A stretch of 63,676 nt of DNA, the filler included, from Folioceros fuciformis (taxonomy: Eukaryota): the NCBI GenBank assembly GCA_049999805.1. It is 9 parts of 9 records of this genome, joined end to end, with 100 filler letters (N's around TTAATTAATTAA, not from the genome) between each part and the next. Parts side by side here need not be neighbours in the genome. Positions count along the whole stretch, not along the records: positions 29,446 to 32,534 come from JBNGIO010003691.1; 8 more parts are not named here. One strand, written 5' to 3'. The number at the start of each line of letters is the position of its first letter. Position 1 is the stretch's first letter. Under the pieces are notes generated by a model. The model worked only from the letters and a program-made list of their open reading frames with translations, had not been told where the DNA came from and searched no databases. Below, one piece after another: positions 799 through 62,669 of the stretch. Both the position numbers and the translations under genes were made by a program.

Positions 799-1576
799 TG
801 GCCCTAACCCTAACTTACTAAAAAAAGGAATGAGTGTGAGTAGAGAAGATGCCCTGGATGCGAGGGATAAAACAAAGTAGGTGTCCAGATCCGGATACCT
901 ACTTTGACCGAAGCGAGCACAAAGGTTATGTGAAAGAACCCTTGTCCGTATCGATATTCCATACTCTACAACTAAATAGACCGCTAAAGTTGGGAATCTC
1001 GCACACACCTTTTTGTAAAATACTAGTAGTTGTTATAATTTTATTTTAAGTTATTTTTTAACAAAATATTAATAATTACTACAACTCTATTCCAGCAACC
1101 TTTTTATAAAATGTTAGTGGTTGCTAGAACTACCTTTTGTCGAATATGTAACACAAGCTCCTGCCATAAGTAAGCTCTAGATTAATTTTCATTCCTCCTA
1201 TTTTTAACTTCTTATTTTTATTTTACTTACACATACTATTTTAATATCTAGATTTTAAAATATTATAATAGGTAGAAATTCGGGTGTTTATCCCGAATTT
1301 GTCTCCCAGTCTAACTATACCTACGAGAAAAGAAAGTACTCTGTAATCTCGATCTATCCAGGAGGCCAGCCGAGGCCTGGTCCGGCGCATCGCCTATATA
1401 TATGGTATAGCGGCTATACTTGTAAATCAGTTCATTTCCGGTGGTCTCTCTTCCGCTCTTCTGCTCTTCCGCGTGCCGAGGGTTTGCGGAAACCACTTCC
1501 GGCCTTTGCGTCATTGCCTCCGGCCGTCCACGCCTCTCCCCTTTGCTTCTGCTTATCGCTTGTGGGCGCTTCCCTG

Positions 1577-13938: not shown

Positions 13939-15631
13939 CTACATCTTGGGTGTGAAAGCCTGAGAACATAATACCTTCCACAACGGTTCCATATCGATGT
14001 TACCTCCGGTGACAACAATGCCCACCTTTTTACAGTCTGCCCACTTCCATGACGTCCTGAATCCCTCAGACAAAACAGCTGCCAGGCCAACAGCTCCACT
14101 TGGTTCCACGACTATTTTCAATCTCTCGAAGCACATGCGCGTTGCTTCCACGATCTCACTATCCTCGACAACCAGCACATCATCTACCAGATCTCGGAGA
14201 GCTGGCCTGCACTCACAATGAAGAAGAAGAAGGCAAACTTCAAGCCAGAGCAGACGACGATAGCTTTTGGAATGTAAGTATTTAAAGGCCAAATGTCCTC
14301 GAACGTACCAAGTGAGATCTCCCAACCATGCACGCAGACCATCAGCGATAGTGTTTGGTGGTGATTTTATCACCCTACCAGTGGCCTTGGATTGAGCAGC
14401 ATCATCCGCCCCTTGGGGCTCAGCAGCCACAACTTTTATTTCTGGCTTTATAGACTTCGCCCCCAGGGCAATCCCAGAAATCAGACCTCCTCCTGCGGTT
14501 CCAGGATGGCAGATACAGGGTCAACTGTACGACAACAGAAAGAAAGCACACAAGGGTGTACTAGATTAGAGTCGAAATAACAACAAAACAAATCTGTCCA
14601 GTATGTCACTACATCTGTACCGAAACAGCCTTGTCAAGTTTGAAACTACAAGCTAGCATTCTGTCACTAAGCCAGCAGTTCCTGAGTTTAACAGTTCCTT
14701 ACCACTCACGGGCACAATTATTGCGTCCAGTTCAGGAACTTGCTCCAGAAATTCAAGGGCTATAGTGCCTTGGCCACTGAGAGGGCGGAGAACGTAGTAA
14801 GGATTGGATCCATCAGCCAGTGCAGAGCACAGAGCAGAACAAAATTTTTTGTCTATCTTTTCAAGAGAAGCAGCGTGTCTGAAGTGACTTGCCAGCAGAC
14901 AACTTTCAGCAGACCCAAAGGGACATGCAACTCACCTGATAACCTTTCCATCGTTGAAAGGATGGATCAGGGTAGCGCCTGTTTCCTTCTGTATCCGAGA
15001 AGCTTCAACCTCTCTGGCTTGAACGTTGGGTTCGCAGAAGCTAACATGCCCGCCGTATCTCCTCACATTCTCAATCTTGCAAGCGGGTGCATCCTTCGGT
15101 ACCACAATATGAGCAGGAATTCCCCGCAACTGCGCAGCTAGTGCCAGTGCTGCGGCATGATTCCCACTGCCACATCCAAGCAGACTGCGGGCCATCAGGA
15201 ACCCATTGATTGTGACACAACGCTCCCACTCACTCTCGCACCAACTCGCACCTGCTGTGCGTCACCACGCCCTTCCTCGCAGTCTTCTCGTCGAGGGAAA
15301 ACACTGCATTGCAAGCTCCACGGAACTTGAAGGCGCCCCTGCATTGTCATCAGGATCTGCAAATTGCTGCAAAAACCTGATCAGGATAACCTGATTGCAG
15401 CCAATAAGGCATCCAGCACGCCACTCACCCCTTCTGGAATATCTCGCACTTGAAGAAGAGATTCCGACCCGCAAGGTTGTTCAGTGAAGATGAAGCGAGC
15501 ACGGGAGTCGTGTGCGAATAAGCCTGGATCCGCATCCTTGCCTCCCGGATCGAGCTCAGATCCGCTGCGTACTGCCCAATGTGCGCTGGTTTGAGCTCCT
15601 CGCAGTCGTCTTGGATGTTGGGAGCTTCCAT
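13939..15631 (-). CDS. SR: Serine racemase (fold-type II PLP enzyme), 6 exons
   Basis: Spliced product has FFKCEIFQKGGAFKFRGA (PLP lysine), VVTHSSGNHAAAL, HPFNDGKVISGQGT, VPVSGGGLISG, TIADGLRA, VVEPSGAVGLAA and TGGNID. Canonical GT-AG introns. Confidence 0.95.
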
Positions 15632-17713
15632 CCCTGAGAAAATGACTCGGACCGTTACTCTAAGCACCACAGTCTTGAACCCTGGTCCCAGAGAGCCGAG
15701 GTTGCAGCCGACCAGATTCTATCCCCATACAGCAACAGGACATAAAAAGGCATCAACCGTGCCTGCCCGCATTCGTACACGTCTCGTTCAAGAACGATTT
15801 CTGGATCTTGTGGCATGGGCGCAGGATTCCCAACGAGCGAAGCGTTGTTGTGGCATGCAAGGTCGGTAATCGCACAGAAAAATATAAATGCCTTCAGTTG
15901 TGACCAGAACTCACCTGGAGCGTCAGCTGTCACTCGCTTTTGTAGCTGTGAAGTGAACTGATGGGACTGCGTCCCTCTATTGCAGAAGGGGTCTTGCCAC
16001 AATACGAGCTTGCGCCCTTGGCCCCCGGGGATTGAGTAAGCACGAGCTAACGGGAAAGCTTCCGTTTAAGTTGAAGGGCCTTCACACTGTAAACGACCCG
16101 GTGGAAAGCGCCGTCCCCGTCTTCATAAATGTACTTAAAACTGCATAAATAAGCCCAGCGCTTAAACCTCACCCGCAGTTCTCGTTCTCGAGGGGCGTGC
16201 GGGATTCGTCGTTACGCGCCCGGCCACCGGCTCCACTGACCGGCTAAGTCTTTCTTACGAGCGTCATGGTTCTCGAGGCTCTTCAGCAACCCTATCTCAA
16301 GTTCGCAGCTTCAACGATTACTGCAAGGCTTTGAAAATTCCATGTGCAACAGGTTTAATACACTTTCAATATTTCCTGCCAACTATTCTTGACATCTACT
16401 TCAAACGGGCTTGTCACCAATGTGCACCTATGAACATGTCTTGGGTCTTGTCCACAGCCATTGTCTATTCTTCACATCTACTTCAAATGGGCTTCTCACC
16501 ATACCTATGAACATATCTCGGGGTGTGAAAACTTGCAATATCCTACCTCGGGTACGTTTTGTAAAGAGGACTAGGTTCGTTGTGTGAAGAGGACTTGAAC
16601 TAAATAGTAGCATTGAGAGGGAAGTACTCTAAACAATAGGTAAGATTGGCCTAGATCCTTTGGCATAGGCTACTTGATTTTGTAGCAAGTGAGGGAGTCT
16701 GACACGTAGTTTCCCATCAAAATGGTTAGGATGCACACTTGAAAAAAAGGCAAAAACTCCACATCCACGTGTGCCCATAATGTAGGCTTGTGAATCTATT
16801 ACTTATCACTGTTCTTATGGACTAGAGGACACGCAGCAAGGTGCAAACAAGCCCTTTGTGGGTCCAAGTTTGATTCCTAAGCAAGGTCCTGGGAGTAGGT
16901 GCAAGAAGACATCCAAAAAAACATAGGTGCAAATTTCAATTCATAGCTTTCCACCCACAGAAATGGTCTATAATATGTCAACTTTGTTTACATAAAAGCC
17001 ATCACATAGATGTGCAAGAAGGGATTTGTCAAAAGAAGTGGATAGTTGGTGCTTGTAACTACCTACAAGAATAGCTAGATTTCTTTTTGTTGCGAAACGG
17101 CATTAGGTTTCACACAAGCTATTAAGCCGAGTAAGTAGCCAGAGGCGCAGATAGAAGTTGATGCAGCAGCATGACGCGAAACAGGACAGAAAGCGAAACA
17201 GGTTTTGGAGAGATGAAGACTCACCTTCTCAAACACTGTACAATTACTGCAGCCGCTATAATTGCTACTATGTTCAAAGCGTAGAAGAGTAGCCTTTGCC
17301 TCGCTGTCCATTACCTACACAACACAACACATCTTAGCAAGACCACATAGCAATTAGACATCTAACCTTCACAGTAGGAATCCTTAAAGACCAAACACAT
17401 CTAGCACATCAAAACTATAGAAAGGACTAGATCAAACTACAAAAACAAATAGGTGTTTTGAACAAATAATTATCACATGTCTTTTTGCAGTCAGATCGAC
17501 TTGAAAATCACCCCTTAGTATCCCATTTCTTAGGCAGCCCTGCTATACCTAGTTCAGACATCTCTCGCTACGACCCATCTTTTTGATTGATACAACTACC
17601 TGAACCAACAGAACAGATCTTAGGGTCTTTAGCAAGAATGTTAGGTAAGGACTCTGAGTCCTCTATACTCTAGGGTAAAATGGAAGGTTTTACAGCACCT
17701 ATACAATAGCTGT

Positions 17714-20700
17714 ATGTGGTCACCTCCAAATAGGTATCCTAGATTATCTCGGCATAGTCCTACCTCCCTCAAACATCCACTTATAGCAAATAATCCACCC
17801 AATCCTCCTAATTTGCCAACAATTATAAACAACAATACAAACAACATTTTCAAGTTGGACTTGAAAGACAAGGACAAATTTCATGGGTCGGATTACCCAA
17901 TATGGGAGCTTCGAATAGAGGTAATTTTCGAAGAGCAAGACCTCATGGATGTTGTGATAGGAAAAACTACAAATCCTGCATTAGCAAACTCTAGAGGGTC
18001 AGATCCAGACATTCAAGCTTGGGTAAAGCTGGACAAGAGAGCACGCAGCATAATCCTATCTGCTCTCGACAGGAATATGGTTCGACATACTCAAAGGCGG
18101 ACCACGTCTGCAGAAGTATGGAAATTGTTGAAGGACATGTTCCCAGCAAAAGATGGAATGTCGCTTATCAATGTTACCAGACAACTCTATGGCCTTCGCA
18201 TGAAGGATAGTGATAGTGTGGAGAATCGCTTACTCAAGTTTCGCAGTTTATGTGCCAAGCTTGCTTCCTACGATAACGTTTTGAAAGAGGCGAAGGCTAT
18301 CACTCTCCTTCTCACATCCCTGCCACATAGTTACAAAGCATTTGTCACTGCACAAACCAACTTTGCAAACCAAGCAGGTGCAAAAATTACTTTCTCACAA
18401 GTAGTTGGTGCACTGTTGGAGGAGGAATCAAGCAGAGTTGCTACTGGACAAGGACAGCAGCAACATAATTCACAAGTCCTCTACACCCAACGTGGATGTG
18501 GAAGAGGACGAGGTAGAGGAAGGGGACCACCCTATCCTACACAAACCTCCTTTACACCTAGACAAAAAAAGAAGGGCACTTGTCATTGATGTCGCATACC
18601 TGGACACTTCAAACTTGAATGTCGTAAGAAGCAGGTCGAAGAGCCACGCCAAGAGGCACCACTTGGTGCTGAAACCCATGTAATGACAAGAGGACAAATC
18701 AGTCCTACACAAACAGCACACAAGCCGCCAACCATCCGTGCGTTATGTCTCTCTCTTTTGCAAGCTGATACTAATATGTGGTTCTTGGACTCAGGGGCTA
18801 CACATCATATCTGCCTATCGAGAGACAAATTTGTCACTTATAAACTAGCACCAACTAGTCAGTTTGCGCTACTTGGAGATGACAGTGGATTGGCAATTGC
18901 TGGATATAGTGATGTCTCGTTCCCTGTGAAAGGAGGGAACCACATCACACGGTTGGGTGTCTTACATATACCTAACATGAAGAAGAATCTTTTGTCAGTC
19001 AAGAAACTTGTCCTAGACCACGATCTGCGAGTGTGTTTCACACCTAGTGGCTGTATAGTAACATCAGCTAACAACCACTCAATCATTTTAGGAGAAGGAG
19101 TCACTTACAATGATCTCTACCATTTTGACATTATAGTCAATTATGCATATGGAATGGTTACTAATGCCAAGAGTGATGTAGACAAGACTTCCCTTTGGCA
19201 TAATCGCCTCCGTCATCCTAGTATAATGTACATACGTCAAGTCGTTAGTAAGCCAGAATTATCCAAGGATCCCATTACTTTTAAACTTGAAGATCACTTT
19301 TTTTACGAAGACTACCAAGTCGGAAAAATAGCACAGAAGCCATATAATGATCCGAAGCCTACCAAAGCAACAGCACTGCTTAATATCGTGCACTCAAATA
19401 TATGCGGCTTGATGTCAATAGCTTCTTTCGGTGGTTCAATATATCCTGATGTTTATCAATGAATGGAGCCATTATTGCTGCCTGTATTTTCTGCATCATC
19501 GTCATCAAACTCATGAGAAGTTTCTAGACTATGTTCAGAGGGCAGAAACACAAACTGGCTGCAAAGGTTAAAAAGCTCAAAAGTGACAATGCTATGGAAT
19601 ACCTTAGCAATGATTTCTAGTCATTTTGTAAATAGAAAGGTATACTTCATAAGCTGACAGTCCCATATCATCTTCTATAGAATTCATATGCTGAGATGTA
19701 TAACCAAACGTTGCAAGAGCGTTGTTGGGCTACCCTCTTATCAGCAAGACTTACCCGCGGTTATTGGGCTGAGGCAGTAGCACCACTAAATTATGTACAG
19801 AACAGGCATCCGGTTAAGCCATTGTTCTCCCACACCCCTTTTGAGCGCTAGTGTGGTCACAAACCTAGAATTTTGGTGCAGCTGCCTACGCCTACACCCC
19901 AGCAAAGAAACGGGGTAAGATGGATAACTGAGCAACCAAGCATGTATTTACTCAGAACAATCAAAAGGCTACAAATTATATAATCCACAGACTCGACAAC
20001 GTACATTGGCAAGAAGTGTAAGTTTCAATGAGAGTTTCATACTCATCTCACATGGAGAGTTTGTCACAAGCCACAAGCCATTGTCAGAGCCTTCCATATA
20101 TGGTCGTACTCCACAGCAATTTTCAAGTGATAACGAGTTAGAGCTTGACATTTCAATCTTTTCCACAGAGTTTATGGACAACACAGTCATACCAACAATT
20201 CTTTTAGGCATACCTCAGCCTCCTTTACCTGTTTAGTAGCCAATCATACCTCCAGACCCTAATCCTGTAAACATAGATGCAGATTTATTAGACCTGGATG
20301 ATGATCCAGCTGCTGATCAGACTTTACTGCAGGCTAACCTAGACCTAGACGTATCTGAAGTTGTTGTTTCAAATGTACTTGTCTTTCCTCGTCAATCTGC
20401 ATGAATTCATCGTCCTAGGTCTGAGTAGTTAGATCCACCATATAAACCGGGTGATAGCTTGGTTTCTCGTGCAGGCCAGAATAACAATCCACAGCATCAT
20501 GTGAGTCTTACTTCTTTAGCCAACACCATAGCATCATATATACTTGATCCACTAAACACACCCTTAACTTACTAGGAAGCATTGTCTGGGCCCCAAAAGG
20601 ATGAATGGAAAAAGACAATAGACTCTGAATACAATAGTCAGATTGTTAACAACACATGGAAAATGGTAACCTTACCCTCTAATCGGAAGCCAATAGCCTC

Positions 20701-21553
20701 GAAGTGGGTATTTAAGCTTAAGCTTCACCTACATGGTACTGTGGCATACTATAAAGCGTGGTTGGTGGCAAGAGGCTACACCCAGGTACAAGGCCTTGAC
20801 TACACGGATACCTTTAGCCCTGTGGTCAAGCTCACCTTGATGCGCATCCTCTTATGTTACGCTGTAAGAAACAAACTACTTGTCCATCAAATGGACGTTA
20901 AAACAACATTTTTGAATAGGGATCTCATAGAAACTATCTACATGAATGACGAGGGATATATTACCACTCCAACCAAAGTATGTCATCTGCGTAAATCTAT
21001 CTATGGTTTGAAACGGCTAGCACATATGTGGCATGCAAGCATAGATAAGAAACTTTGCAAGCTAGGGTTTGTCCCTCTTGCTGCGATTGCAGCGTATATG
21101 TGCTACAAAAGACCCACAAGATTTGTATCATCACACTCTACGTGGATGATAATTTTATTTTTGCCAATGATCAAGAGATACTCACCTATATTAAAAAGGA
21201 GTTATCGCATGAATGGGACATGATACACATTGGCCCATTGAAATTTGCCCTAGGAATCCAATTCCTATTCGATCCTGCAATGACCAGTGTATGTTCAGAT
21301 CAATCTCATTTCATTCGACAGTTGCTAACCAAGTTTAACTTACGGGCAATGAATCTAGTCTTCACCCTCGTGTCAACTAGTGACAAGCTGTCAATTGAGG
21401 ATTGCCCATCTACAGACGTTGAAAAGGCAGCCATGTTGACAATCCAATACTGAGAGGAAGTAGGAAGCCTGCTTTATCTCGCTGGTTGGACACGACCTGA
21501 CATTTCCCTGGCAATAGGCATTGTATCCAGATTTTTACACAACCCAGGACAAG
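17714..21553 (+). mobile_element. Decayed Ty1/Copia internal region (gag, protease, integrase, RT), truncated before RNase H
   Basis: Gag DKFHGSDYPIWELRI, protease WFLDSGATHH, GAG-pre-integrase LWHNRLRHP, RT KWVFKLK...HQMDVKTTFL...LYVDD; many stops and frameshifts. Confidence 0.92.
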
Positions 21554-29445: not shown

Positions 29446-29837
29446 TTGGGAGCCGCCATGTTCCCCTAGTGGCATGGGGAATCAAGGCCGAGATGCATTT
29501 GCACAATGGATTAACCCTCTAACCCAGCAGCTTGCACACAAGGTCAAGGGAGCTCTCACCAAAAAAACCTCCCCCCTTAATAACAGGCCTGGCCTCTTAT
29601 ACTCCCTTGGCCCGGAACCCCTGTCACTGCCTAACCAAGTTAGCACACCTTAGACAGAACCCTCCACTCGTCAAAACCCTAAACCTAAGTCCGACCTAAT
29701 CCTAACCCTAACTCTTATCTAACTCTAATCTAACCAAATCTTCTAACCTTTCCTCTACAACACTCACTCACAGATCCAAAAAAAAAAAAAGAGAACCCAT
29801 CATTTCCCACGGGTCTGTTCAGCATGTGGAGTCCACA
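29446..29837. mobile_element. Probable LTR fragment ending ...GTCCACA, abutting the DNMT-Gypsy element
   Basis: C/A-rich with telobox-like AAACCCTAA motifs and a CA terminus at an abrupt composition change. Confidence 0.45.
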
Positions 29838-29953
29838 ATGAGGTTAGACGTTGCTAGAGGGTTAGCTGCAATTTTTAGTAAACTTGAAAGGAGGCAAGCT
29901 GAATTTCAATTGGATGATAAGATTCAGCTTGTACGAAGCAGGCAATTTGTAAA

Positions 29954-31056
29954 TTGGAACCTGTGTGTAATAAACTTCTGAGTTTGAGTTTGTCTGCATG
30001 TGGACTGGTTGTAGTTGAGTTGTTTGCTCGAATTACATATGGTTTGGAAGCGGTGTTGGCTGTTGGTTATGCAGTTAAACGTTATATTTATTGTGACCCA
30101 GATGAAGTTTGTCAGGCAATTGCAAAGGCTAGATTGTATAATTTGTGTAAAAAGTATCCAATGCAATTGAAGATTGAGGTTATCACGTAGGCGTTTTCCA
30201 CTTGGCCGCAGGATGTCAGGCTTATTGGATTGACGCAATTTTAGATGGTGGAAGAAATTGATCTTGTAGTGGCGGGTTGGGNNNNNNNNNNNNNNNNNNN
30301 NNNNNNNNNNNNNNNNNNNNNNNNNNNNNNNNNNNNNNNNNNNNNNNNNNNNNNNNNNNNNNNNNNNNNNNNNNNNNNNNNTGTTAGGGACACTCAATGG
30401 CAGGAAGAGGAAAAGGGCTAATGAATTATAGGTCTGAATTATTTTATGAGTTGGTAAGGATTCTCAATTTGATACAAGAGCGTCAAAAGAAAGAATGTGG
30501 GTATTTAGTTGAGAATGTGGACTCTCATATGGATAGGAGGGTGTTGCTGAGATAGGATTTTGAGGAGATTAAGTATTACCTAGGGGAGCCTATAAAGTTT
30601 GATAAGGTGCAATTTGGATCAAGAGATCACAGACTTTGTTGTTTTTGGAACAATATGATGCCTAAGCATTTGTTGCAGAGACATGCAGATCAATGGCAAA
30701 GGAGTGAGGAGTTCATAGTAGATCATATTTTGGAAGAAGGACGTGTAAGTAGGCGGGTGGTTTCAGATGATAGACATCCCTTTTATTGTGTCAACAAAAA
30801 GGGTGAGCCTAGAAGGCGTTACCAACATTTGTCAGTTTTGAAAACGCTAATGCATTCAAAGGAGACAGACCTGGAATGGTATTTGATAGCAAGAAGGATA
30901 TGTGGAATGTTCCATCACCCAAGGAGAGAGAAAGGGCAATGGGCTTTTGATACGGATTCTACTTATGTGGAGGGTATAATAAGTGAACAAAGAAATAAAA
31001 AGCTTGGGCAAGCTATGAATTTGAATACTGTTAAGTGGCTTATGATGTCAATATAG
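29954..31056 (+). pseudogene. C5 cytosine DNA methyltransferase domain within a Ty3/Gypsy pol (decayed)
   Basis: Motif I VVELFARI..GLEA, II YCDPD, IV IDLVVAGW-g[N gap]-C*GHSMAGRGKGL..RSELF, VI YLVENV (30511), VIII QFGSRDHRL..FWNN, IX SPKERERAMGF, X LGQAMN, all in canonical order. Confidence 0.88.
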
Positions 31057-31299
31057 GTTTATCAGGAGTGGAAGCAAAAATGGAAAGTTATTATGAGTGC
31101 AAGATTTAAAAAGGGATGTTCAAGCGAGAGCATTAAACTAGAAATAGGGGAGGAGGTCAAAAGGATTAGGGAAGCTGGTGGCATGGTTGATGATAGTCAT
31201 AAAGAAAATAAACAAATGAGGACTAGTAAAGAGGCTGGGGAAGTCAGAGGTGCGACCAAGAGTTGCGTTGGGTTGGTTGATGATGTAAGTGTTTGTGGG

Positions 31300-31744
31300 A
31301 AGTAGGAGCATGTGGAATTTCAATGGGATATTTCGGAGGAGATGAGTGTTAAGGATAGGAAGATTTTGCAAAGATTTTAGATGATAGGAGAAACTTTAAG
31401 GTGTTTGCTTTTTCCAATAAAAAATTGGGTAGACAACGACGTTTAAGTTTAAAAATTGTCTAAAAACTGAAGAGCCAGTTTTAAGAAGACCGTATTGTTT
31501 GAGTAAAGTAGAAAATGAGATTGTGGATAAGAAGTGTCAGGAGTTGTTAGAGGTAGGATTGATTAGATCCTCAAAGTCAAAATATGCAGTAGCTACAGTA
31601 TTTCCACTGAAAAAGGATGTACATGGTAATTGGATGGAGGAGAGGATGTATGGCGATTATAGGTCATTGAATGAGGTGACACCCATGGATAGATATCCAA
31701 TGCCTACGCCAAAAGAAATTTTTGATGCAATTGGAGATTATAAC
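31300..31744 (+). mobile_element. Ty3/Gypsy reverse transcriptase N-terminal half, interrupted by an LTR insertion at 31745
   Basis: RRPYCLSKVE...LLEVGLIRSSKSKYAVATVFPLKKDVHGNWMEERMYGDYRSLNEVTPMDRYPMPTPKEIFDAIG. Confidence 0.9.
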
Positions 31745-32534
31745 TGTGAACCTCCAAAGTTTGGGGTAGTAGTTTGTTTTGGTTGAAAAAGGGTTAATAG
31801 TGGTATGGTATGGTTTTCTTTTTCTACTTCTTTTCCCTAATTTTTCTTTATTTTCTGGTCATTTTTCCTATTTTTCTTTGTGCTAATTAGATTAATTAAC
31901 TAGGAAAAAGTTGGTTTGGTTATTAGAGTGGGTACAGGTCTAGTTCTAGACCTGGGAAAGTTTAGATCCAGTACCGGGCCATAGGGTTGGGAAAGTTTGA
32001 GTCTAGGTCTGGTGATTAGTTTAATATTAATTAAAGATATATAATATTAAATAATTGAATAATAATTAACATAATATTAAATAATAAAAATAATGGTATG
32101 AACATAGGAACGAGAATATGTGGGGTATGTCAGTGTCAGGGATCAAGGTCTGATGTCAGGCTGGCTGATTGCTTGGCTGGCCTGAATGGTCATGAAGGCC
32201 GTGCCCTAGCTAGAGCTAGAGGCAGGGGTTGCGGCCGCCCCCATCCCCCTCCCCCTTTCTCCCTTCCTCCTCCATTCCCTTCTTGTCCCGCTTCCTCTTC
32301 TTCCCCTTCTCTCTCCATCTCTTTGTCCTGCTTCTTCTTTTGGATCCACATTACACGTAGACCGGGTGATGGGACTGAGGGCAAGCAAAGAAGGAGCATG
32401 AGGCGAGCTGGAGGATTCGGTTGATGCAGGGCCAGGCTTGCCTCCGTCTTCTCCCTGATTTCTTTCCCGTTCCCCTTCTACCCTGTCCCGATTTCCTCCC
32501 CAATCTACAGCCCCAATGTTAGATCTGCCTTGCT
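31745..32534 (+). mobile_element. LTR 5' part inserted into the Gypsy RT
   Basis: Begins TGTGAACCTCCAAAGTTTGGGGTAGTAG exactly where RT homology stops. The same terminus is found inverted at 35833-35877. Confidence 0.75.
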
Positions 32535-35832: not shown

Positions 35833-35877
35833 TTTTCAACCAAAACAAACTACTACCCCAAACTTTGGAGGTTTACA
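35833..35877 (-). mobile_element. LTR terminus (same family as 31745) inserted into a Copia gag
   Basis: Reverse complement TGTAAACCTCCAAAGTTTGGGGTAGTAGTTTGTTTTGGTTGAAAA differs at 1 of 45 positions from 31745-31789. Confidence 0.8.
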
Positions 35878-37605: not shown

Positions 37606-40600
37606 TGACAAGTACGCACGGAAGCTGGTAGGCGTAGGAAAGAAGAATAGATTCGAGATGAGATGTCGGTGTCTTCTACACGCGAGAGTTGTTTACTGAC
37701 GGTTAGGGGTTTTAAGCTAACTTACGACCTATATACCTAGCATATACTAACACTCCCACTCAGGTCTAGAGTTAGGACGTGTATAATTTGTCATATTTAT
37801 ATATAATTAAATGATAAATGCTATGAAACGTAAGACCTAACAAGAAACCCGACAACCCGCAAAGAAACTCGTCAGCCCAGAGCGGGTGTCGGCGTCGCGT
37901 CAATCTTCATGTTCCCAGCTTACTCTTTGATTCACAACTGTGCTCCACTTCAAAGGATTACCCTGACCTCAGGCCCATGGCAGCTGCATGCTCGTAATGC
38001 TTGATGCGTCCTAGAGCCTTCGTCAAGATATCTGCTACCATCACTTCCGTAGGACAGTAGGAAATCCTTACCACACCTTGAGCTATAGTCTCGCGAATGT
38101 AATGATGTTCGATTCCAATATGTTTGGTTCTCGTGTGGAAGCGAGGATTCAGTGTTAACGCAATTGCACTTTGATTGTCGCATAGCAGGTCTATCGGAAG
38201 CTCTTGTGGTATGCCTAGCTCCCTCAGTGCTCCCACTGACCAGGTGATTTCCTTGCATGCCTCTGTCAGACTCTTGTATTCCGCTTCTGTAGATGACAGT
38301 GCAATTGTAGATTGCTTTTTACTACTCCAAGAAATTGCACCACCAGCTAAGAGGGTCACATAGCTACTAATGCTCTTGCGGCTGTCTGGGTCTCCTCCTC
38401 AGTCAGCGTCACTGTAGACTATTAAATGCAGTGCCTTCTTTGCCTTTGAGTTGCACAGAATTCCCCACTCAGCTGTTCCAGAAATGTACCTATAGACCCT
38501 TGTCATAAGGTCCTCGTGAGTTTTGTTGGGGTTTGAGACAAAACGTGAAGTCAGTCCAGAAGTAAAGGCAAGATTAGGCCTGCTTCCTATCATCAAGTGC
38601 ATTAGGCTTCCATTCTTTGAAGGATACAGTTCAACATATTTAACATCCTCTTCAGGTATATCTCCCACTTGCTGTGTATACTTGACATTTTGCTCTACTG
38701 GCGTTGCCACAGGCTTGCAGCCGGTCATGCCCTATCGCTCTAAAATCTGCAAAGCATATTTATGTTGATGCAAGAAAATAGTTCCTGCATCTCGATTTCA
38801 AAGTAGCTGCATGCCCAAACAGTAGGCAAGTGCACTAGCCTCTGTAGTCTTGAAGGCTCTTCCTAGGTGCTCCTTTAATTCAAATATCATGCGTAGGGAG
38901 TTGCTAAGGATGATTATATCGTCCACATAAATAGCAAGTGCCAAGAAATCTGTACTTTCTCCTTTTACATAGACATTGCTGTCAGCATGTAAACTTTCAT
39001 ATCCAAGCTCTGTCAGGTACGTGTGGATTCTTTCATACCATGCTCGGGGGCTTTGTTTAAGCGCATACAATGTTTTCTGGAGCTTACATACTGGATGAGG
39101 CACATTTGCAGGCACTGTGACGCCTGCAGGAACTTGCATGAAGATCTCCTCCTACAGGTTCCCATACAAAAATGTTGTAGTAACGTCCAGCTGCTCCAGC
39201 TCAAGATTATTAACTAGAGCAAGTGCCACAAACATGCGTAGAGTGTTGAGCTTCACTATAGGGCTGAAGGTATCATCGTAGTCCACTCCAGGTATTTGCA
39301 AATACCCTTTCGCAGCCAATCTTGCCTTATATCGTGCAATACTTCCGTCTGCCTTAAGCTTAATCTTAAACACCCACTTGCTGCCAACTTGTTTCCTATC
39401 TGCAAGAAGGCTGACTATTGTCCAAGTGTGGTTTTCATAAAGAGAGGCCAACTCGGACTGAATGGCCTTGTACCAATGCTCAGCATCAGGACAGCTGAGG
39501 GCTGCTTCATAAGTTGGAGGTTTGTACAGCACAGTGTTGGCAGCTAAACAGTAAGTCAGATGTGACTTGGGATACCGGAAATCCTCTGAGGCATACCTTG
39601 TTGGTGGTCTACGCGACCTCTGTGACTGCTGAGGCTCAAGATGAGCATGTTTAGCCTTCCTTCTGTGCAGTCCATCTGGTGAGGCGGACGGGATCAAAGT
39701 CTCTGCCTCCTCAAACTCAAAGATCCAGCTGAAGGTGAATCTTGTAAATTTCTGCTACTAAGGGTGTGTCTAGGTGTTCGCATTGGTGTCTGCACAAGAG
39801 GTGACTGTGGTGCTGGAGGGATTACTGGTGCCACTTGTGCTACAGGGGGTACGGGTGCGGCAGGAAGAGGAACTTGGATTTCTCCGACCATCATCTCCTC
39901 CTCCTCTTCTGTAGAGCCATCGTTGGAGCTTGAATAATCAGGCAATGGCGCTCCCACTGACTGTTGAGACTCCACACCTTCGACGAACACCACATCCCAA
40001 GAATGGGTAATGACCTTTGTTCTTCTATTCAGTACCTTGTACCCCTTAATTCCTTCTGTGAACCCAATAAAAATACAGTGAGTTGACTTGGGGTCGAACT
40101 TCTTGCGCAGGTCCTTGTGTATTTGAATAAACATAGACGAGCCAAACACACGGAGATGCGAGAGATTTGGCTTTCTGCCTGTCCACAGTTCATAAGGAGT
40201 CTTTCCCTTAACTGTTTTATGTGATATCATGTTTTGAATATAGGTAGCATAACCTACTGCCTCTGCCCAGTATGCTTTTGGCAGGTTGGCATAATGAAGC
40301 ATACTGTAGGATGATGTCTCCAAAGACTGATTTTTATTCTCGCAAACCCCATTCTGTTGTGGGGTAGGAGCATTCGTCAACTGTCTACCTATGCCATGTT
40401 GTACGCAGAATGCATCAAACTCCTTTGAGGTATACTCTCCGGCATTATCAAATCGCAAGTTTTTCAAACGACGACCAGTTTGGGTCTCTGCCCATGTCTT
40501 GTACTCTACAAAACATGCAAAAGTGTCTGATTTATGCTTCAGAAAATACACTACGCAAAAACGTGTGTAATCGTCAATAAAGGTGGTAAAGTACTCCTTC

Positions 40601-43227
40601 CCTCCAAGAGAAACCGACAATTTTCCACATACATCATTGTGGACGAGTCCTAAGATTTCCGTTGCTCGTGTTGCTTGTCCCACAGGGAAGGACGTACGCT
40701 TGTGTTTGCCCAGTATACAAGCTTTGCATACTCCAAAATTCTGTAGATTGTCAAGGGTGATGCCTTCCACCAGCTTATCCTTGTACATAGTCATGAGCTT
40801 CTGAAAATTGATGTGACCCAGGCGAAGATGCCATAGGTTGGTAAGAGAGGGCTTGGCATAGTGTGTGAAGTCAGCGGCTGAGAGTGCTTTCTCTTCCTTC
40901 ATGTCCAAATGATAAAGATCATCCTTCTGAAGGTGTCCAGTGGCTAAAAGGGTGCCATCCTTCGTCTCGACGAGACACTTGCCGTCTCCAAAACACACAT
41001 AACAGCCCAACTGATCTATTTTCCGAACTGAAACGAGGTTCTTTGCCAGTCCAGGTACGTAAAGCAAGTCTGAAATTTCTAGGTGTTGATCAGGTTTCAA
41101 GTCAAGCTGAACGGTCCCCTGTCCAGCAATTTCATGCTGTGAATTGTCTCCTAAGCACACAAATTTTGCAGGTGTGCTCTCGTTCAACTCTGTAAAATAT
41201 GCAACATGCGGGGTCATATGCTGCGAGGCTCCACTGTCTATGTACCAAGTGTGTTCAGGGTGGCTGGCAAAGCAAGTGACCACATTGCAATGATGGAAAT
41301 TGTGATCTCGAGGTGAGTTCACTGTGGTGTCGTAGATGACACTTGTACAGAATGCCTTGCTGTATTTTTGCATGGTCACTGCTAGGTGCCCTGAGGGTCC
41401 ACCTTTTCTAGCCAGTCTCTTGCGGCAGACTTCCCAGGTATGATTTGTCATGCCGCAATGCCCACATGGGAGCTTGCCTCTGCCACCACCAAAGCTAAGA
41501 GGCCTAGAGTTATTACCTCGGCCACGGTCTCGGCCTCTGCTGGATGGACGTCCTCGTCCACGACCTCTTCCAGGTTTGCCCGTCCAAAGGGCCTTGTCTC
41601 CTCCTAGAGAAAGAGAGGTGTTCGCTATTTTCCTTCTAGACTCTTTTTTGTTAATATTGCTGTTATCACTCGATAAACTGTGATGGATGGTACATCCTGC
41701 AGGCCTTGTACCACACTTGACCAGGTTTCTGGCAGTGTAGTGAGAAGAATTACTGCAAGGAGCTCCTCCTCCAATGCGAAACTTGCAGAAACTAACTTGG
41801 CTCGCGAGTTGCGAAACTCAAGTACGTGTTTATCCACGGAATCTGTCCCTTTCATCTTGAGGCCCATGAATTGTTTTAACATAAACGTTTGCAGCATGAG
41901 GTCCCTCAAGTCGTACAAGTTTTTTTACTTGCTTCCACCAAGCATCAACATTTTCTTCAGCTCCCTGAAACACGCCAGTGTGGGTGCTCTTAACACTAAA
42001 GTGAAGCAGTGTCCAAGCCTGCTGGTCATTTTCCTCCCATCGAGCCAACTCTTCCGGTGGAGCAGCAGCACCAGGTTTGGGTGTAGGCATGGGAGGTGTG
42101 CCTACACCATGGACATGTGCCCATAATTTTCTAGATTTCAGTATTTCTTGCATACTCTTCTGCCATACATGATAATTTTCACCATTGAACTTGTCTTCCT
42201 TGGGTATTTTAATGGCAGGAACTTGTGAAATGGTCTGCTGCTGAGCCATTCTGTAGAGTACCCCTTAGGGATTGAATGGAAACCAGGTCGCCTCCAAAGG
42301 TTCTGGCTTTCTAGGTTCTCTGCAGATATACAAGGTTACCTCCAATGCATAGGAGGCCGTTAGCGAATGTTCAGCACAAATGTTATGTAAAATGTGCGAA
42401 GCAAACTCCTTGATGATGTACAAAGGTTGATAAATCTGTGATTTATTGAACAGATTGGTGACATGATAATGTAGATGTGCGGATGCTTCCGCTGCTGAGA
42501 CTAGTAAAAGCAAGCACAGGATTTCCTGGCTAGGAGGGAGCAACATCGTGCTCAAAGAAGATCAGAGACATCAATGTTGCTCCAGTCATAACCGTCCAGT
42601 GCAGGATACCCCTATACAACATTTGTGGCCATTAGTTCACAAATTATGCAGATTGTGATCCAAACCTGCTGCCAGCTCGTGGGGGCAAGAGAACGTAAGT
42701 ATGCTTCCTCCCGCTCAATTTTCCACACATGGAACTCTTGGAGTCTTCTGGCTCTTCTTGCTAAGCGTTCTCGTTTCCTCAGGCCAGGCATAGGTGCTAA
42801 CCCTCGTGTGGTGCTGTTGACATTATCCAGAACCAAAGTCCAAGAAGCATTTGTAACAACATCACGGCAGGGCCGCACCGCTCAACCTAGAAGAAAAGAA
42901 GTGCCATGCACCACTGTCACTGGAAAATGTGACCATGGCGTAGAGCCAAAAACTATCTCAAGAGAACACCACCGCGCCCTAGAAATTCATCGTAAAATTA
43001 AGAGACTCCAGGCGCCATGATGCATACGCTGACACAAGCATTTCAGATCAGGAATCGAGAAGACTCTTGCTCTGATACCATGAAAAGTACGCACGGAAGC
43101 TGGTAGGCGTAGGAAAGAAGAATAGATTCGAGATGAGACGTCGGTGTCTTCTACATGCGAGAGTTGTTTACTGACAGTTAGGGTTTCTAAGCTAACTTAC
43201 GACCTGTATACCTAGCATATACTGACA
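37606..43227 (-). mobile_element. Full-length Ty1/Copia (5.6 kb): 147-bp LTRs at 37606-37752 and 43081-43227, GCATG TSD, PBS and PPT
   Basis: LTRs TG...CA differ at 8 of 147 sites by manual count; TGGTATCAGAGC PBS at 43069-43080; PPT at 37753; gag, CCHC knuckle, WYIDSGAS protease, integrase, YVDD RT and RNase H present with frameshifts and stops. Confidence 0.96.
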
Positions 43228-50300: not shown

Positions 50301-52020
50301 TATTAATGAGTTGTATTTGGAATGAATAGCTGCTTGCCAATGCTTAGAATCTGGACCACTAACTGCCTCTCAATATGTCTGTGGTTCGTAGCCAGGTTTA
50401 AAGACCATATTGAGGTCTAGTGCTGAGCCATGAGGTTGAGAAGCCTTCCTGAAGTTGTCATTGCGATAAGGTGATTCTATTTAGTTTTCACGACTTCTAT
50501 GCACTCAAGAAGATCTCCTGAGTGGGACAGGCTGAGAATTAGGCAGCACATACTCCATAGGATCATCTACAGACGGATTTGTGTTCTATGCAATGTTAGG
50601 TTGAGGAACTGCGGGTGCAAAGTCTTATGGTGCTTCATCATCGGATGGAACATGATCTATTGGAAGATTAGAATCATCATCATCTGACACAAGATTAGGC
50701 TGATTGCCAAAATCAGATAGGTCAGATAGTGCTTCTAACACTGCTGGCTGTGAAGGCTGTAGGATTGGAACAACTGACAAGGGGTCTACAAATGATGGAT
50801 CACTAGCAGGAAATGTAACAAAATCGTTATCACTGACCTCTATCTCTGTCTCTACAGAATGGTCTACTACTTTAGCACTGTCTGTATCAAAGAGAACACC
50901 TGGAGGATGAACCAGAGACTCAAGGACAGAACTTTCATCGAAGGCAACTGTCCTAGCATGAGACACTCGATGGGTAGCAGGATTAAATAGCTTATATCCA
51001 TGTATCCCTGCTGTGTATCCTATGAAAATGTGACGCTTAGACTTGAATGCAAACTTATGATGAAGCTTATCAGGTATGTGTGCATAAGCTGTGCTGCCAA
51101 AAACTCTGAGGTGAGATAGGTCTGGTTTGCTACCCGTCCAGACTTCAAAGGGTGTATTGCCACGAAGAGAAGATATAGCTGAACGATTTTGAAGGTATGT
51201 TGCAACTTGCACTGCTTCTGTTCAGAATTTTACTGAAAGTCTCCCCTGATAGAGGAGAGCTATGGCAGCATCCTGAATTATTCTATGTCTTCTCTCAGCT
51301 CGACCATTCATATTAGAGTGATAAGGAATGGTGAGTTGTCTGGCTATCCCCCTTTCCTGTTAATACTCCTGAAAAGCTGTGGATAGATACTCTTTTCCAT
51401 TGTCTGAACGAATGCACTTTAATTTATAGCCGGTTTGTCTCTCTGCATATGCGAGGTACCGCTTGAAGCTCCCAAACACCTCACTCTTATGGCGAAGAAG
51501 CTCTGTTACTGTGAAGTGTGACTTGTCGTCTTCAAACATGACAAAATAGCGAGCTCCTCCCCAAGAGTTCACAAACATCGGCCCACAGATATCAGTGTGA
51601 ACCAGGTCCAGCAATTCTGTGGCTTTCCTGGGCTTTCCACTGCCAAAGTGTGATTTAAATTGCTTACCATGTACACAGGCCACACACAAGTCAAGACTAG
51701 GGAGCTCCTACACACTGAAACCAGTGACCATCTTCTCTTTAAGAAGTTGCCTCATAGCCTGTATGTTGGGATGTCCTAAGTGGCAATGCCACTTAAATGC
51801 ATTGCTAGCGCTACCAGGCTTTGGACTAACATCAATAACGTTGGCTGATTCAGGTGGAACATCAGAAGCAAAGTCCAACAAATAAAGATCAAACAGAGGA
51901 GTCCCTCGAGCAATTATGATTGATGGTGCAGATAGTCTGTAAACATGCCATTCAAAGCCCTCTATAGTAATTCTGTACAGGCCAGTTTTTCCCAGAGCCA
52001 TAGTGCTGACCAAATTCTTT
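47326..52020 (-). mobile_element. Decayed Ty1/Copia (integrase, RT, RNase H, long 3' region, PPT, 3' LTR about 47326-47535)
   Basis: LVHTDICGP, IRSDNGKEY, HQMDVKTAF, YVDD, GYCDADWA; GAGGGGGG PPT next to TGTTGAG; a 74-bp unit triplicated at 49983-50204 breaks the RT. Confidence 0.9.
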
Positions 52021-52543
52021 NNNNNNNNNNNNNNNNNNNNNNNNNNNNNNNNNNNNNNNNNNNNTTAATTAATTAANNNNNNNNNNNNNNNNNNNNNNNN
52101 NNNNNNNNNNNNNNNNNNNNCTTTTATACTGATTTCTTTCTCATGGTGTATGAGATTTTATACAACTTTTATGATAATTGTTTTTAAAGTATGCATTAAA
52201 TATAAAAAATAATAATTAAATTTTCTTTAATGTTTAATAAAATTAATAATAATAAATTTAGAGTTTAGGGTTCATGAATGTTAGTTGTGAATTCTAATAA
52301 ATATACTTTTAAACTTTTTCTGGTCTTTGACTCAAAGACATACAATCTATAGTGATTTTTTTAATGAAAATATTATATATATATANNNNNNNNNNNNNNN
52401 NNNNNNNNNNNNNNNNNNNNNNNNNNNNNNNNNNNNNNNNNNNNNNNNNNNNNNNNNNNNNNNNNNNNNNNNNNNNNNNNNNNNNTGGAGAAATATAGTC
52501 TGAATTGGAGATGTCTTGATAGCATTTGCAACACAAGGAAACC

Positions 52544-53977: not shown

Positions 53978-54121
53978 ACCTTTGTGCCACTGCACCCACA
54001 TCCTCAAAACTTAACTTGTCCCAATATATGTATAGCTAAACATTCTTTCTTGTTGATTGTAAAGTCATCTAATACAATAAAAAGAATATCGATCTAAGGA
54101 GTTACACTTGTCAGTTTTCAA

Positions 54122-62273: not shown

Positions 62274-62669
62274 GGAAGTGTAGAAGGTAGTGGTGTTGTT
62301 GTTGGTTGCTGGTGTTGGTGTTGGAGCGAGAGAGTGAGTGAGTGAGTGAGGGAAGTCGCAGATCTAAGAGGTCAGGGTCATTGTAGTGACTGGAGTGAGT
62401 TTGTAGGCACTAAGAGAGGTGCAGTTGACCGCTGGACAGCGAGACCTGTCCTATGCCTGATTGGAGCTAGAGGGGAGCCCTCGAATCCATCATCGAGTCA
62501 ATTGAGTCCGACCCTCCATCCACAGCAGNNNNNNNNNNNNNNNNNNNNNNNNNNNNNNNNNNNNNNNNNNNNNNNNNNNNNNNNNNNNNNNNNNNNNNNN
62601 NNNNNNNNNNNNNNNNNNNNNNNNNNNNGGAACCCGTCGGCAATCAGTGCCCGGGGTTTTGCCTCCACA
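62274..62669. mobile_element. LTR 3' part (family of 43528-44694) inserted into a Copia integrase
   Basis: Aligns to about 44310-44694 and ends GCCTCCACA. Confidence 0.85.

What the first reader, a model, noticed from the sequence alone, without database searches (positions are those of the whole stretch)
29954..31744. Ty3/Gypsy retrotransposon carrying its own C5 cytosine DNA methyltransferase, in an apparent land-plant genome
Seen: DNMT motifs I, II, IV, VI (ENV), VIII, IX and X lie in order on the + strand with no introns. About 400 bp downstream, on the same strand, come the usual pre-RT linker (W.IS...FAFS...LG) and a Gypsy RT (KKDVHGNW..RMYGDYR.LN). The N gap falls inside catalytic motif IV (GW-g|C*GHS); the Cys is kept but the next Gln codon has become TAG. 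Known: DNMT-bearing retrotransposons were reported in dinoflagellates and charophyte algae (de Mendoza et al. 2018), with self-methylation proposed; I am not aware of them being an established feature of land plants. Inference: this lineage persisted in, or entered, an embryophyte, and intact copies may exist elsewhere in the genome.
Basis: partly seen in the sequence, partly recalled or inferred. Interest (0 to 1): 0.9.

Follow-up and report, generated by a model that had tools for sequence, protein, structure and literature searches.

The report
Dead DNMT-carrying Gypsy retrotransposon fragment
A decayed 1.9-kb piece of a jumping gene that once carried its own DNA-methylating enzyme lies between high-copy repeats in a plant-lineage genome; this kind of element is already known from green algae, so the piece mainly extends where such elements are found.

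Summary
Window 29954-31053 encodes a C5-DNA-methyltransferase domain. About 380 bp downstream, 31433-31741 encodes the first ~100 residues of a Ty3/Gypsy reverse transcriptase. All three pieces (DNMT N-half, DNMT C-half, RT start) are collinear with full-length gag-PR-DNMT-RT-RNaseH-INT polyproteins. The 100-N gap hides exactly one codon of motif IV.

The copy is dead. It has five in-frame stops, all TAG, and at least two frameshifts. It is cut at 29838 and 31745 by the ends of high-copy repeats.

The DNMT family is closest to DNMT3A/3B among solved structures. The only organism-named relatives are from the algae Closterium and Monoraphidium.

It therefore belongs to the known kind "Gypsy element with a Dnmt3-like domain in Pol" (de Mendoza 2018, Klebsormidium).

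The land-plant claim is not shown. The window is nine small scaffolds joined artificially. A SUN gene on another scaffold places the assembly in Streptophyta, outside ferns and seed plants, but cannot separate bryophyte or lycophyte from alga. Residence in the host genome is likely. A bisulfite-like run suggests CG and CHG methylation of the relic.

The parts
29446..29838 (.). Left flank: high-copy repeat whose end (..GGAGTCCACAA) abuts the element
   Evidence: Summed contig depth is 900-3,400 against about 9-90 inside the element. An X2 unitig (29812-30127, 0 differences) crosses the boundary. GC skew is -0.37 against +0.45 in the element.
29839..29953 (+). Pol sequence upstream of the DNMT domain, open in the frame of 29802; no detectable homology
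   Evidence: Translation. The tblastn hits of relatives start at 29954 or later.
29954..30280 (+). DNMT N-half: ELFARITYG (30017-30043, degenerate AdoMet motif) to DLVVAGW (30260-30280); in-frame TAG at 30188 and 30242
   Evidence: tblastn hit in 8 of 10 relatives, 26-41% identity, always ending one residue before the C-half hit. BLASTP to P0004 974-1062, E=7e-9. Coordinates.
30281..30381 (+). One base (g) plus a 100-N scaffold gap that hides one codon of motif IV (relatives have Pro or Glu there)
   Evidence: n / n+2 rule in 8 of 8 relatives. Relatives read AGW[P/E]CQ. No listed contig bridges the gap.
30382..30810 (+). DNMT C-half, first frame: catalytic Cys then TAG (30385), YLVENV (30502-30519), QFGSRDHRLCCFWNN (30610-30654); second TAG at 30553
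30813..30947 (+). DNMT segment in a shifted frame: ALPTFV (30816-30833) to ERERAMGF (30924-30947); frameshifts near 30811 and 30948
   Evidence: Translation fits the family consensus printed. An X1 unitig (30498-31769, 0 differences) carries the same shifts.
30949..31056 (+). End of the DNMT domain: LGQAMNLN (31003-31026); TAG at 31054
31057..31432 (+). DNMT-RT linker, degenerate. Homology to P0004 runs to 31155. There are stops in every frame, and at least one further frameshift before the RT.
31433..31741 (+). N-terminal ~100 residues of a Ty3/Gypsy RT (KKDVHGNW 31610-31633, RMYGDYRSLN 31643-31672, EIFDAIGD 31715-31738). It has no stops and is cut off at 31744.
   Evidence: 46-52% identity to 6 of 10 relatives, downstream of their DNMT. 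E=9e-21 to P0004 1364-1456, where Pfam RVT_1 starts at 1421.
31745..32534 (.). Right flank: very high-copy repeat starting TGTGAACCTCC, LTR-like and roughly the inverted form of the left flank's end
   Evidence: Summed depth is 1e3-1.3e5. There are 24 loose ends before 31745 in each of X1 and X2. Pieces are present in X6, a run of another study with the same species label. Its first 45 nt recur at 35877-35833 at 97.8%.

Best explanation
Window 29839-31744 is a dead internal fragment of a Ty3/Gypsy LTR retrotransposon. Its Pol polyprotein carried a Dnmt3-like C5 cytosine methyltransferase between protease and reverse transcriptase (gag-PR-DNMT-RT-RNaseH-INT).

Only the DNMT domain, the DNMT-RT linker and the first ~100 residues of RT survive. 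Everything else was separated by two insertions of high-copy repeats, whose termini now bound the fragment.

The copy cannot make protein. It is low-copy and resident in a streptophyte genome (probably, but not demonstrably, a non-seed land plant). It appears to be CG- and CHG-methylated by the host. The fact that all its in-frame stops are TAG fits deamination of methylated CAG codons.

In intact relatives the DNMT is translated as part of Gag-Pol. By inference from de Mendoza 2018, not shown here, it would methylate the element's cDNA or insertion site.
For: Homology:
- 373 hits at E<=1e-3, best 4.7e-26.
- PF00145 in 6 of 6 hits scanned. P0004 reads zf-CCHC, Asp protease, DNA_methylase 978-1226, RVT_1 1421-1575, RNase H, integrase.

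Collinearity:
- N-half, C-half and RT start match in order, with a one-residue gap.
- In a DNMT tree of 51 rows, a branch with SH-aLRT 100 puts the window with all 17 DNMT>RT rows, which include Closterium, and away from all 19 sampled RT>DNMT rows.

Dnmt3 affinity:
- The best solved-structure matches are DNMT3A/3B (1.5e-8 for P0001; 3.3e-15 for the family profile). HhaI/HaeIII and DRM follow. DNMT1 does not appear at E<=1e-3.

Decay:
- 5 in-frame stops and at least 2 frameshifts within the DNMT.
- The frameshifts are present in a raw-data unitig with 0 differences.

Boundaries and residence:
- Depth is about 9-90 inside against 1e3-1e5 outside.
- Unitigs cross both junctions by about 25 nt.
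- The right repeat is also held by X6, from another study with the same species label.

Methylation:
- In X3, C>T changes number 66 against 1 G>A.
- All 33 listed C>T sites in the element are CHH.
- The differences per contig equal the number of CHH cytosines in 4 of 5 contigs.

Stops:
- In frame there are 5 TAG, 0 TAA and 0 TGA in 518 codons. Out of frame there are 24 TAG, 30 TAA and 42 TGA.
Against: - The window's own translation does not reach Pfam significance.
- No LTR, PBS, PPT, gag, PR, RNase H or integrase of this element is on the scaffold, so 'LTR retrotransposon' rests on relatives.
- No DNA of any relative could be fetched, so LTRs of the family were not seen.
- X1-X3 are one sample and may be the data the assembly was made from, so they are not independent support.
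- X3's library type is not on record, so bisulfite conversion is inferred.
- Substitutions at conserved columns show no strand bias (C>T 7, G>A 6). The strong C depletion of the coding strand is therefore not explained by this account.
- The host's single-copy depth was not measured, so low-level contamination is not excluded by depth.
Confidence: 0.82

Rival explanations
1. The element is as described, but the assembly is from a streptophyte alga, not a land plant. The finding would then add nothing to the known host range (charophytes).
For: - The only organism-named relatives of the DNMT are algal. Closterium accounts for all 6 clusters with an organism name among 30 looked up. Closterium and Monoraphidium account for the 4 organism-named proteins among 81.
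- The SUN protein has a long stem branch. It lies in an unresolved group with bryophytes, lycophytes and Mesotaenium, and is about as far from Marchantia (path 2.12) as Mesotaenium is.
- The best named match of a Copia ORF is only 34-42% identical.
Against: - The best named SUN matches are liverworts, Selaginella, moss and Ginkgo (E 1e-91 to 1e-85). Mesotaenium scores 4e-62.
- No Closterium, Chara or Klebsormidium protein is among the 120 listed.
Confidence: 0.3
2. The 3.1-kb scaffold comes from a contaminating alga, or is an assembly chimera joining algal DNA to host repeats.
For: - The scaffold carries no host gene.
- The element has no other copy in the window.
- All holders of the element belong to one sample and study.
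- The named relatives are algal.
Against: - Both ends of the fragment run into repeats that are 100 to 10,000 times deeper in the same runs.
- Unitigs with 0 differences cross both junctions (X2 29812-30127; X1 30498-31769).
- The right repeat is held by X6, from another study.
- The retained CG and CHG cytosines match a plant-type methylation pattern.
Confidence: 0.08
3. A host DNMT3 or DRM pseudogene happens to lie next to an unrelated Gypsy RT fragment (chance nesting, or a mis-join across the N gap).
For: The direct Pfam evidence is weak. The scaffold has a gap inside the DNMT.
Against: - DNMT C-half, linker and RT are on one gap-free contig and one raw unitig.
- Order and spacing match those of full-length polyproteins.
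- The gap corresponds to exactly one residue in 8 of 8 relatives.
- The DNMT groups with TE-borne DNMTs of the same layout.
Confidence: 0.03
4. TAG is a sense codon (Gln) in the organism where this element lived, so the copy is less broken than it looks.
For: - All 5 in-frame stops are TAG, against 25% TAG among out-of-frame stops.
- One TAG lies at a 91%-Gln column. Three lie at columns with 10-12% Gln.
Against: - Frameshifts remain whatever the code.
- Long host and Copia ORFs in the window are free of TAG under the standard code.
- CAG>TAG is what deamination at CHG-methylated sites would give, and CHG cytosines appear methylated here.
Confidence: 0.02

Closest known systems
KnitGypsy-Dnmt3 of Klebsormidium nitens (de Mendoza et al. 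2018, PMC5890265; passages and the whole Discussion read)
   Same: A Dnmt3-related, non-rearranged DNMT domain without introns, inside the Pol ORF of an LTR Gypsy element, in a streptophyte. In that paper the copies are silenced and carry CHG and CHH methylation.
   Different: No K. nitens sequence was returned by any search, so direct homology and a single origin are untested. The domain order of KnitGypsy-Dnmt3 is given in a figure and supplements that I could not see. The window's copy is decayed, whereas the K. nitens copies show purifying selection.
Closterium polyproteins annotated 'unnamed protein product' or 'hypothetical protein' (NIES-53, -54, -65, -68; for example P0297, P0003)
   Same: Same layout: gag zinc knuckle, protease, DNMT, RT, RNase H, integrase. 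Same DNMT clade as the window. RT start 50.5% identical and DNMT 32-39% identical.
   Different: They are intact or longer ORFs in a zygnematophyte alga. Identity is low, so they are not the same family in the narrow sense.
RT-RNaseH-DNMT-INT-PHD Gypsy elements (for example P0016, P0007, Monoraphidium neglectum P0326)
   Same: A homologous DNMT domain (E 1e-19 to 1e-12 to the window) inside a Gypsy Pol.
   Different: The DNMT sits after RNase H rather than before RT, and there is a C-terminal PHD finger. They form a separate DNMT clade (SH-aLRT 100).
SymbioDIRS-Dnmt3 of Symbiodinium (de Mendoza 2018)
   Same: A Dnmt3-type domain inside a retrotransposon Pol. De novo CG methylation was shown in yeast for these.
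   Different: DIRS class with a tyrosine recombinase, in dinoflagellate hosts. The paper describes it as an independent acquisition.
Host DNMT3 and DRM of plants (Yaari et al. 2019, PMC6453930; passages read)
   Same: Same enzyme superfamily. DNMT3A/3B are the best solved-structure matches of the family.
   Different: Host genes are multi-exonic and are not fused to PR or RT. The motif order here is not rearranged as it is in DRM.

Membership tests
C5 cytosine DNA methyltransferase (Pfam PF00145) | Match to the family model above the gathering score | tested here: not met
   The window's own translation gives E=0.13 and 12 bits against a cut-off of 22 for the C-half, and nothing for the N-half.
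C5 cytosine DNA methyltransferase (Pfam PF00145) | Significant homology to proteins that pass the model | tested here: met
   Best E is 4.7e-26. 6 of 6 scanned hits pass PF00145, with E from 2.6e-17 to 4.5e-4.
C5 cytosine DNA methyltransferase (Pfam PF00145) | Catalytic Pro-Cys of motif IV and Glu-Asn-Val of motif VI (motif names recalled) | tested here: inconclusive
   The Cys codon is present at 30382 and ENV at 30508-30516. The residue before Cys is hidden in the N gap, and the codon after Cys is TAG.
C5 cytosine DNA methyltransferase (Pfam PF00145) | AdoMet-binding motif I (F-x-G-x-G, recalled) and an open reading frame | tested here: not met
   The window reads ELFARITYG where relatives read LF[GS]G[IL]... 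There are five in-frame stops and at least two frameshifts.
Ty3/Gypsy LTR retrotransposon | Pol order PR-RT-RNaseH-INT with a Gypsy-type RT | tested here: inconclusive
   Only the first ~100 RT residues are present (46-52% identity to relatives). Full order is seen in relative P0004, among others. RNase H and INT of this copy lie beyond the cut at 31744.
Ty3/Gypsy LTR retrotransposon | Long terminal repeats, PBS/PPT, target-site duplication | tested here: not met
   There are no long direct repeats on the scaffold. The fragment is internal and bounded by other repeats. No DNA of relatives could be obtained.
DNMT-bearing Gypsy elements (KnitGypsy-Dnmt3 type) | DNMT domain in the same reading unit as RT, without introns | tested here: met
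   Collinear with 6 of 10 polyproteins, and on one gap-free contig from the DNMT C-half to the RT.
DNMT-bearing Gypsy elements (KnitGypsy-Dnmt3 type) | DNMT of Dnmt3 affinity | tested here: inconclusive
   DNMT3A/3B are the best solved-structure hits. No tree with DNMT3, DRM, DNMT1 and bacterial references could be built, because no reference sequences were available to the scripts.
DNMT-bearing Gypsy elements (KnitGypsy-Dnmt3 type) | Direct homology or shared origin with the K. nitens elements | not tested
   No Klebsormidium protein appeared among the named hits. The paper's supplements are closed.

The most novel reading that the evidence does not exclude
Dnmt3-bearing Gypsy elements of the PR-DNMT-RT type were inherited from the common ancestor shared with zygnematophyte algae into land plants. 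This genome, or close relatives of it, would still hold intact and possibly active copies. That would give a land plant, with its own RdDM and CMT machinery, a transposon-encoded de novo methyltransferase.
Probability: 0.1. Interest if true: 0.75.

Novelty: new member of a known kind. Interest (0 to 1): 0.4.

Why it matters
Retrotransposons that encode their own cytosine methyltransferase invert the usual picture of methylation as a host weapon. In the papers I could read, they are documented only in dinoflagellates and the charophyte Klebsormidium.

If the host here proves to be an embryophyte, this relic would be evidence that the lineage reached land plants, and it would justify a systematic search of bryophyte and lycophyte genomes.

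Whatever the host, the searches show two things. The DNMT-Gypsy family is much larger than the one published case: 373 representatives at 50% clustering. It also comes in two layouts whose DNMT trees are congruent with the layout. The locus itself is non-functional.

Tried and rejected
- Whole-genome search of the window's own assembly: no genome is held.
- Rfam on the whole window: no family reached its gathering score, so there is no rRNA or miRNA marker for the host.
- ESM Atlas on the WD40 ORF: only generic WD40 clusters, with no useful taxon.
- Earlier-findings look-ups by place and by sequence: nothing.
- Fetching DNA of relatives, to see LTRs and to test whether the C-poor coding strand is a family trait. 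P0006 and P0002 in metagenome contigs and P0004 in viral contigs found nothing.
- Expression: no RNA holder listed.
- Bridging the N gap with contigs: no listed contig spans it.
- A joint 29838>31745 with 32 other letters between, seen in X1 and X2: only 25 letters on the shorter side, and both sides are high-copy repeat ends. I draw nothing from it.
- Strand-specific editing as the cause of the decay: substitutions at conserved columns were C>T 7 against G>A 6, so it is not supported.
- Flanks as this element's own LTRs: rejected. The reading frame is cut mid-domain at both ends with no PBS or PPT, and the flanks are 100 to 10,000 times deeper than the interior.
- A Copia ORF as a taxon marker: the best match is an unnamed 60% hit, and the named hits (34-42% identity) are scattered over angiosperms, an arachnid and a fungus, so it is uninformative.
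- Literature: four searches listed no paper reporting a DNMT-bearing retrotransposon in a land plant. The library covers open-access papers only, and supplements were closed.
Full report
**What the window is**

The 63,676-base window is not one locus. Eight spacers of 44 N + TTAATTAATTAA + 44 N divide it into nine pieces of 1.4-23.6 kb, each with one 100-N gap. The finding lies on the piece 29446-32534 (3,089 bp; gap at 30282-30381). Sequence beyond those limits belongs to other scaffolds of the same assembly and is not its neighbourhood.

**The observation**

Translated directly, the region gives only a sub-threshold Pfam match (PF00145 E=0.13, 12 bits, cut-off 22) and nothing for the N-half or the RT.

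An exhaustive HMMER search with 30382-31056 (stops as X) against 1.84 billion representatives found 373 proteins at E<=1e-3. Of these, 153 were at E<=1e-10 and the best was 4.7e-26, at 33-36% identity. Many hits are 1,000-3,000 residues long.

All 6 hits that I scanned pass PF00145. P0004 (2,188 aa) reads:
- zinc knuckle 530
- aspartyl protease 796-888
- DNA_methylase 978-1226
- RVT_1 1421-1575
- RNase H 1638-1766
- integrase 1895-2061

P0007 and P0016 instead have RT-RNaseH-DNMT-INT-PHD.

I ran tblastn of 10 relatives against the scaffold.
- The C-half was hit in 10 of 10 and the N-half (29954 or 30002 to 30280) in 8 of 10.
- In all 8, the N hit ends at residue n and the C hit begins at n+2.
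- The RT start (31433-31741) was hit in 6 of 10 at 46-52% identity, always downstream of the DNMT. The four without an RT hit showed no RT match either to the scaffold or to P0004's RT, as far as the retrieved proteins go.

The scaffold join across the gap is therefore correct, and the gap stands for a single codon of GW-x-CQ, where relatives have Pro or Glu.

The TAG at 30385 lies where 191 of 210 aligned relatives have Gln.
- The ERERAMGF block is in another frame.
- The 'FAFS..LG' linker is in a third frame and has no significant match.

**State of the copy**

Along the homologous path there are in-frame stops at 30188, 30242, 30385, 30553 and 31054. There are frameshifts near 30811 and 30948 and at least one more between 31056 and 31433. 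The AdoMet motif is degenerate (ELFARITYG).

An X1 unitig (30498-31769, 0 differences) carries the two DNMT frameshifts, so they are not scaffolding errors. The RT reading frame stops abruptly at 31744 (..EIFDAIGD), and homology to relatives begins only at 29954.

**Boundaries and residence**

Logan contigs of four coded runs were laid on the scaffold.
- Inside 29858-31711 the summed depth in X1 is 9-88, and the scaffold's own unitigs are at 8-9.
- Depth in X1 is 900-3,400 in 29446-29857 and 1,100-129,000 in 31712-32534.
- Twenty-four contigs in each of X1 and X2 have loose ends just before 31745, where a repeat starting TGTGAACCTCC begins.
- The left repeat ends ..GGAGTCCACAA at 29838, roughly the inverted form of that start.
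- Unitigs with 0 differences cross both junctions by about 25 nt.
- X6, a small run of another study with the same species label, holds pieces of the right repeat (31747-31915 and 32222-32534).
- The first 45 nt of the right repeat recur at the end of another scaffold of the window.

I read this as an old element broken by two insertions of the host's own high-copy LTR-like repeats. That argues for residence in the sequenced organism rather than contamination. The caveats are that X1-X3 are one sample and may be the assembly's own data, and that I could not measure the host's single-copy depth.

A 196-204-nt contig about 90% identical to 30590-30791, plus extra depth in some bins, shows at least one more diverged copy of the DNMT region.

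**What family it is**

The family profile and the DNMT-only relative P0001 match DNMT3A/3B best among solved structures (3.3e-15 and 1.5e-8). HhaI/HaeIII and DRM follow, and DNMT1 does not appear at E<=1e-3.

Of 150 fetched relatives with a near-full domain, 17 have the DNMT before RT, 71 have it after RT, and 62 have no RT in the protein.

I built a tree of 51 rows: the window, all 17 DNMT>RT rows, 19 of the 71 RT>DNMT rows (every fourth one, plus Monoraphidium), and 14 of the 62 without RT (ids up to P0045). One branch (SH-aLRT 100) separates the window, all 17 DNMT>RT rows and 6 rows without RT from all 19 RT>DNMT rows and 8 without RT. Within its side the window sits next to P0292 and P0001 (SH-aLRT 91; 40% identity at best). 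The Closterium copies are on the same side and Monoraphidium is on the other (quick method, unrooted).

Organism names were available for few relatives.
- Of 30 clusters looked up, 6 carry an organism name, all Closterium (NIES-53, -54, -65, -68).
- Of 81 proteins, 4 carry one (three Closterium, one Monoraphidium neglectum).
- No land plant and no Klebsormidium appeared.

**Comparison with print**

De Mendoza et al. 2018 (PMC5890265; passages and the whole Discussion read) describe intronless Dnmt3-related domains in the Pol ORF of an LTR Gypsy element of Klebsormidium nitens. The copies are under purifying selection and are silenced with CHG and CHH methylation. Their yeast assay for that domain was inconclusive.

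A 2025 paper (PMC12344493; passages) still cites only streptophytes and dinoflagellates for DNMT3 inside retrotransposons. My four searches listed no land-plant case. Supplements, which may hold the K. nitens sequences and domain order, were closed.

The window's fragment is therefore a new, dead member of a known kind. Whether it shares one origin with the K. nitens elements is untested.

**The host**

A 484-codon SUN-domain ORF on another scaffold (52523-53977) has 318 matches.
- Best is an unnamed Logan protein (52%).
- Best named are Marchantia paleacea (43%, 1.3e-91), Calypogeia, Selaginella, Physcomitrium and Ginkgo.
- Mesotaenium is at 4.1e-62.

In a 27-row tree the window's protein lies outside the fern and seed-plant clade (99/98). 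It sits in an unresolved group with liverworts, moss, lycophytes and Mesotaenium, on a long stem.

Other host-like domains in the window are WD40, TPR, PALP and TMP-TENI. A Copia ORF has no named relative above about 41%.

I conclude that the assembly is streptophyte. I put an embryophyte of the bryophyte or lycophyte grade at about 0.65 and a streptophyte alga at about 0.3. The land-plant claim is not established.

**Methylation and mode of decay (inference)**

Run X3, from the same sample as X1 and X2, differs from the scaffold by 66 C>T against 1 G>A. X1 and X2 show 8 and 7 C>T.
- All 33 C>T places listed inside the element are CHH cytosines, although CHH make up only 84 of the 131 cytosines in the five contig ranges.
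- The number of differences per X3 contig equals the number of CHH cytosines in 4 of 5 contigs (18/18, 11/11, 15/15, 17/17; the fifth 18/23).

The simplest reading is that X3 is a bisulfite or enzymatic conversion library, and that CG and CHG cytosines of the + strand are methylated in most molecules while CHH are not. The library type is not on record.

In line with this, all 5 in-frame stops are TAG (0 TAA, 0 TGA in 518 codons), whereas out-of-frame stops are 24 TAG, 30 TAA and 42 TGA. Relatives have Gln at 91% of one of these columns and at 10-12% of three others. A C lost from CAG, a CHG site, fits deamination of 5-methylcytosine. CAA, a CHH site, is still present 11 times.

**How it works**

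This copy does nothing. It is a silenced relic.

For intact relatives the anatomy shows that the DNMT is made as part of Gag-Pol between protease and RT. Their alignment keeps [P/E]CQ, ENV and the FGS.AHR.R.YW.N block.

That the enzyme methylates the element's own cDNA or insertion site, as de Mendoza 2018 proposed for Pol-borne Dnmt3 domains, is inference and was not tested here.

**Unexplained**

The coding strand is very poor in C (10.6%; GC skew 0.45). At third codon positions there are 24 C against 135 G among 435 codons (binomial p=6e-20). The host SUN and Copia ORFs do not show this.

Symmetric CG and CHG deamination cannot produce such a skew, and substitutions at conserved columns show no strand bias (C>T 7, G>A 6). 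It may be a trait of the lineage's replication, but I could not obtain DNA of relatives to test this.

Noticed in passing
window 1-63676: The window is nine small scaffolds joined by 44 N + TTAATTAATTAA + 44 N. Each scaffold has one 100-N gap within its first 255-836 bases. Neighbouring pieces are not physically linked.
   Followed up: yes
window 29812-31679 (run X3): X3 behaves like a bisulfite or enzymatic-conversion library. C>T occurs at CHH cytosines only, and CG and CHG are retained. The relic therefore appears CG- and CHG-methylated but not CHH-methylated on the + strand.
   Followed up: partly
window 30188, 30242, 30385, 30553, 31054 (also 31303, 31378 in the same frame): Every in-frame stop is TAG, none TAA or TGA, while out-of-frame stops are only 25% TAG. 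This fits loss of C from CHG-context CAG codons. A TAG-sense code is a remote alternative.
   Followed up: partly
window 29954-31741: C is almost absent at third codon positions (24 of 435, against 135 G), giving a GC skew of 0.45. This is not seen in the SUN or Copia ORFs of the window. The cause is unknown.
   Followed up: partly
window 31745-32534 and 35833-35877: An LTR-like repeat starting TGTGAACCTCC has a summed depth up to about 1.3e5, against about 9 for unique sequence. Its first 45 nt recur inverted at the start of the next-but-one scaffold. It is probably one of the most abundant repeats of this genome.
   Followed up: partly
window 52523-55165: An uninterrupted 484-codon SUN-domain ORF is followed 120 bp later, on the same strand, by a 355-codon WD40 ORF. 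The SUN protein sits on a long branch with an unnamed 52%-identical relative. This could be a retrogene or an unusually compact locus.
   Followed up: no
relatives P0001-P0353 (not in the window): The DNMT-Gypsy family has two layouts, PR-DNMT-RT-RH-INT and RT-RH-DNMT-INT-PHD. Their DNMT domains form separate clades. Most members come from unnamed environmental contigs.
   Followed up: partly
window 29676-29745: Degenerate CCCTAAA/CCTAA-like (plant-type telomere-like) repeats lie inside the left high-copy flank.
   Followed up: no
window 29838/31745 (runs X1, X2): A single-copy-depth contig joins sequence like the left repeat's end to sequence like the right repeat's start, with 32 purine-rich letters between. 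Only 25 letters match on the shorter side, so its meaning is open.
   Followed up: no
window 17645-21223, 39152-41817, 50625-51221, 62490-63257: Several Copia-type fragments are present (gag, Pol_BBD, gag_pre-integrs, rve, SH3_retrovirus, RVT_2). One has a 707-codon open frame whose best database match is only 60% identical.
   Followed up: partly
window 13939-14520 (-) and 58078-58569 (-): These are host-like exons. One is a PLP-dependent enzyme (PALP, E=6e-21) and the other a thiamine-monophosphate synthase domain (TMP-TENI, E=1e-49). Both could serve for a taxon check.
   Followed up: no
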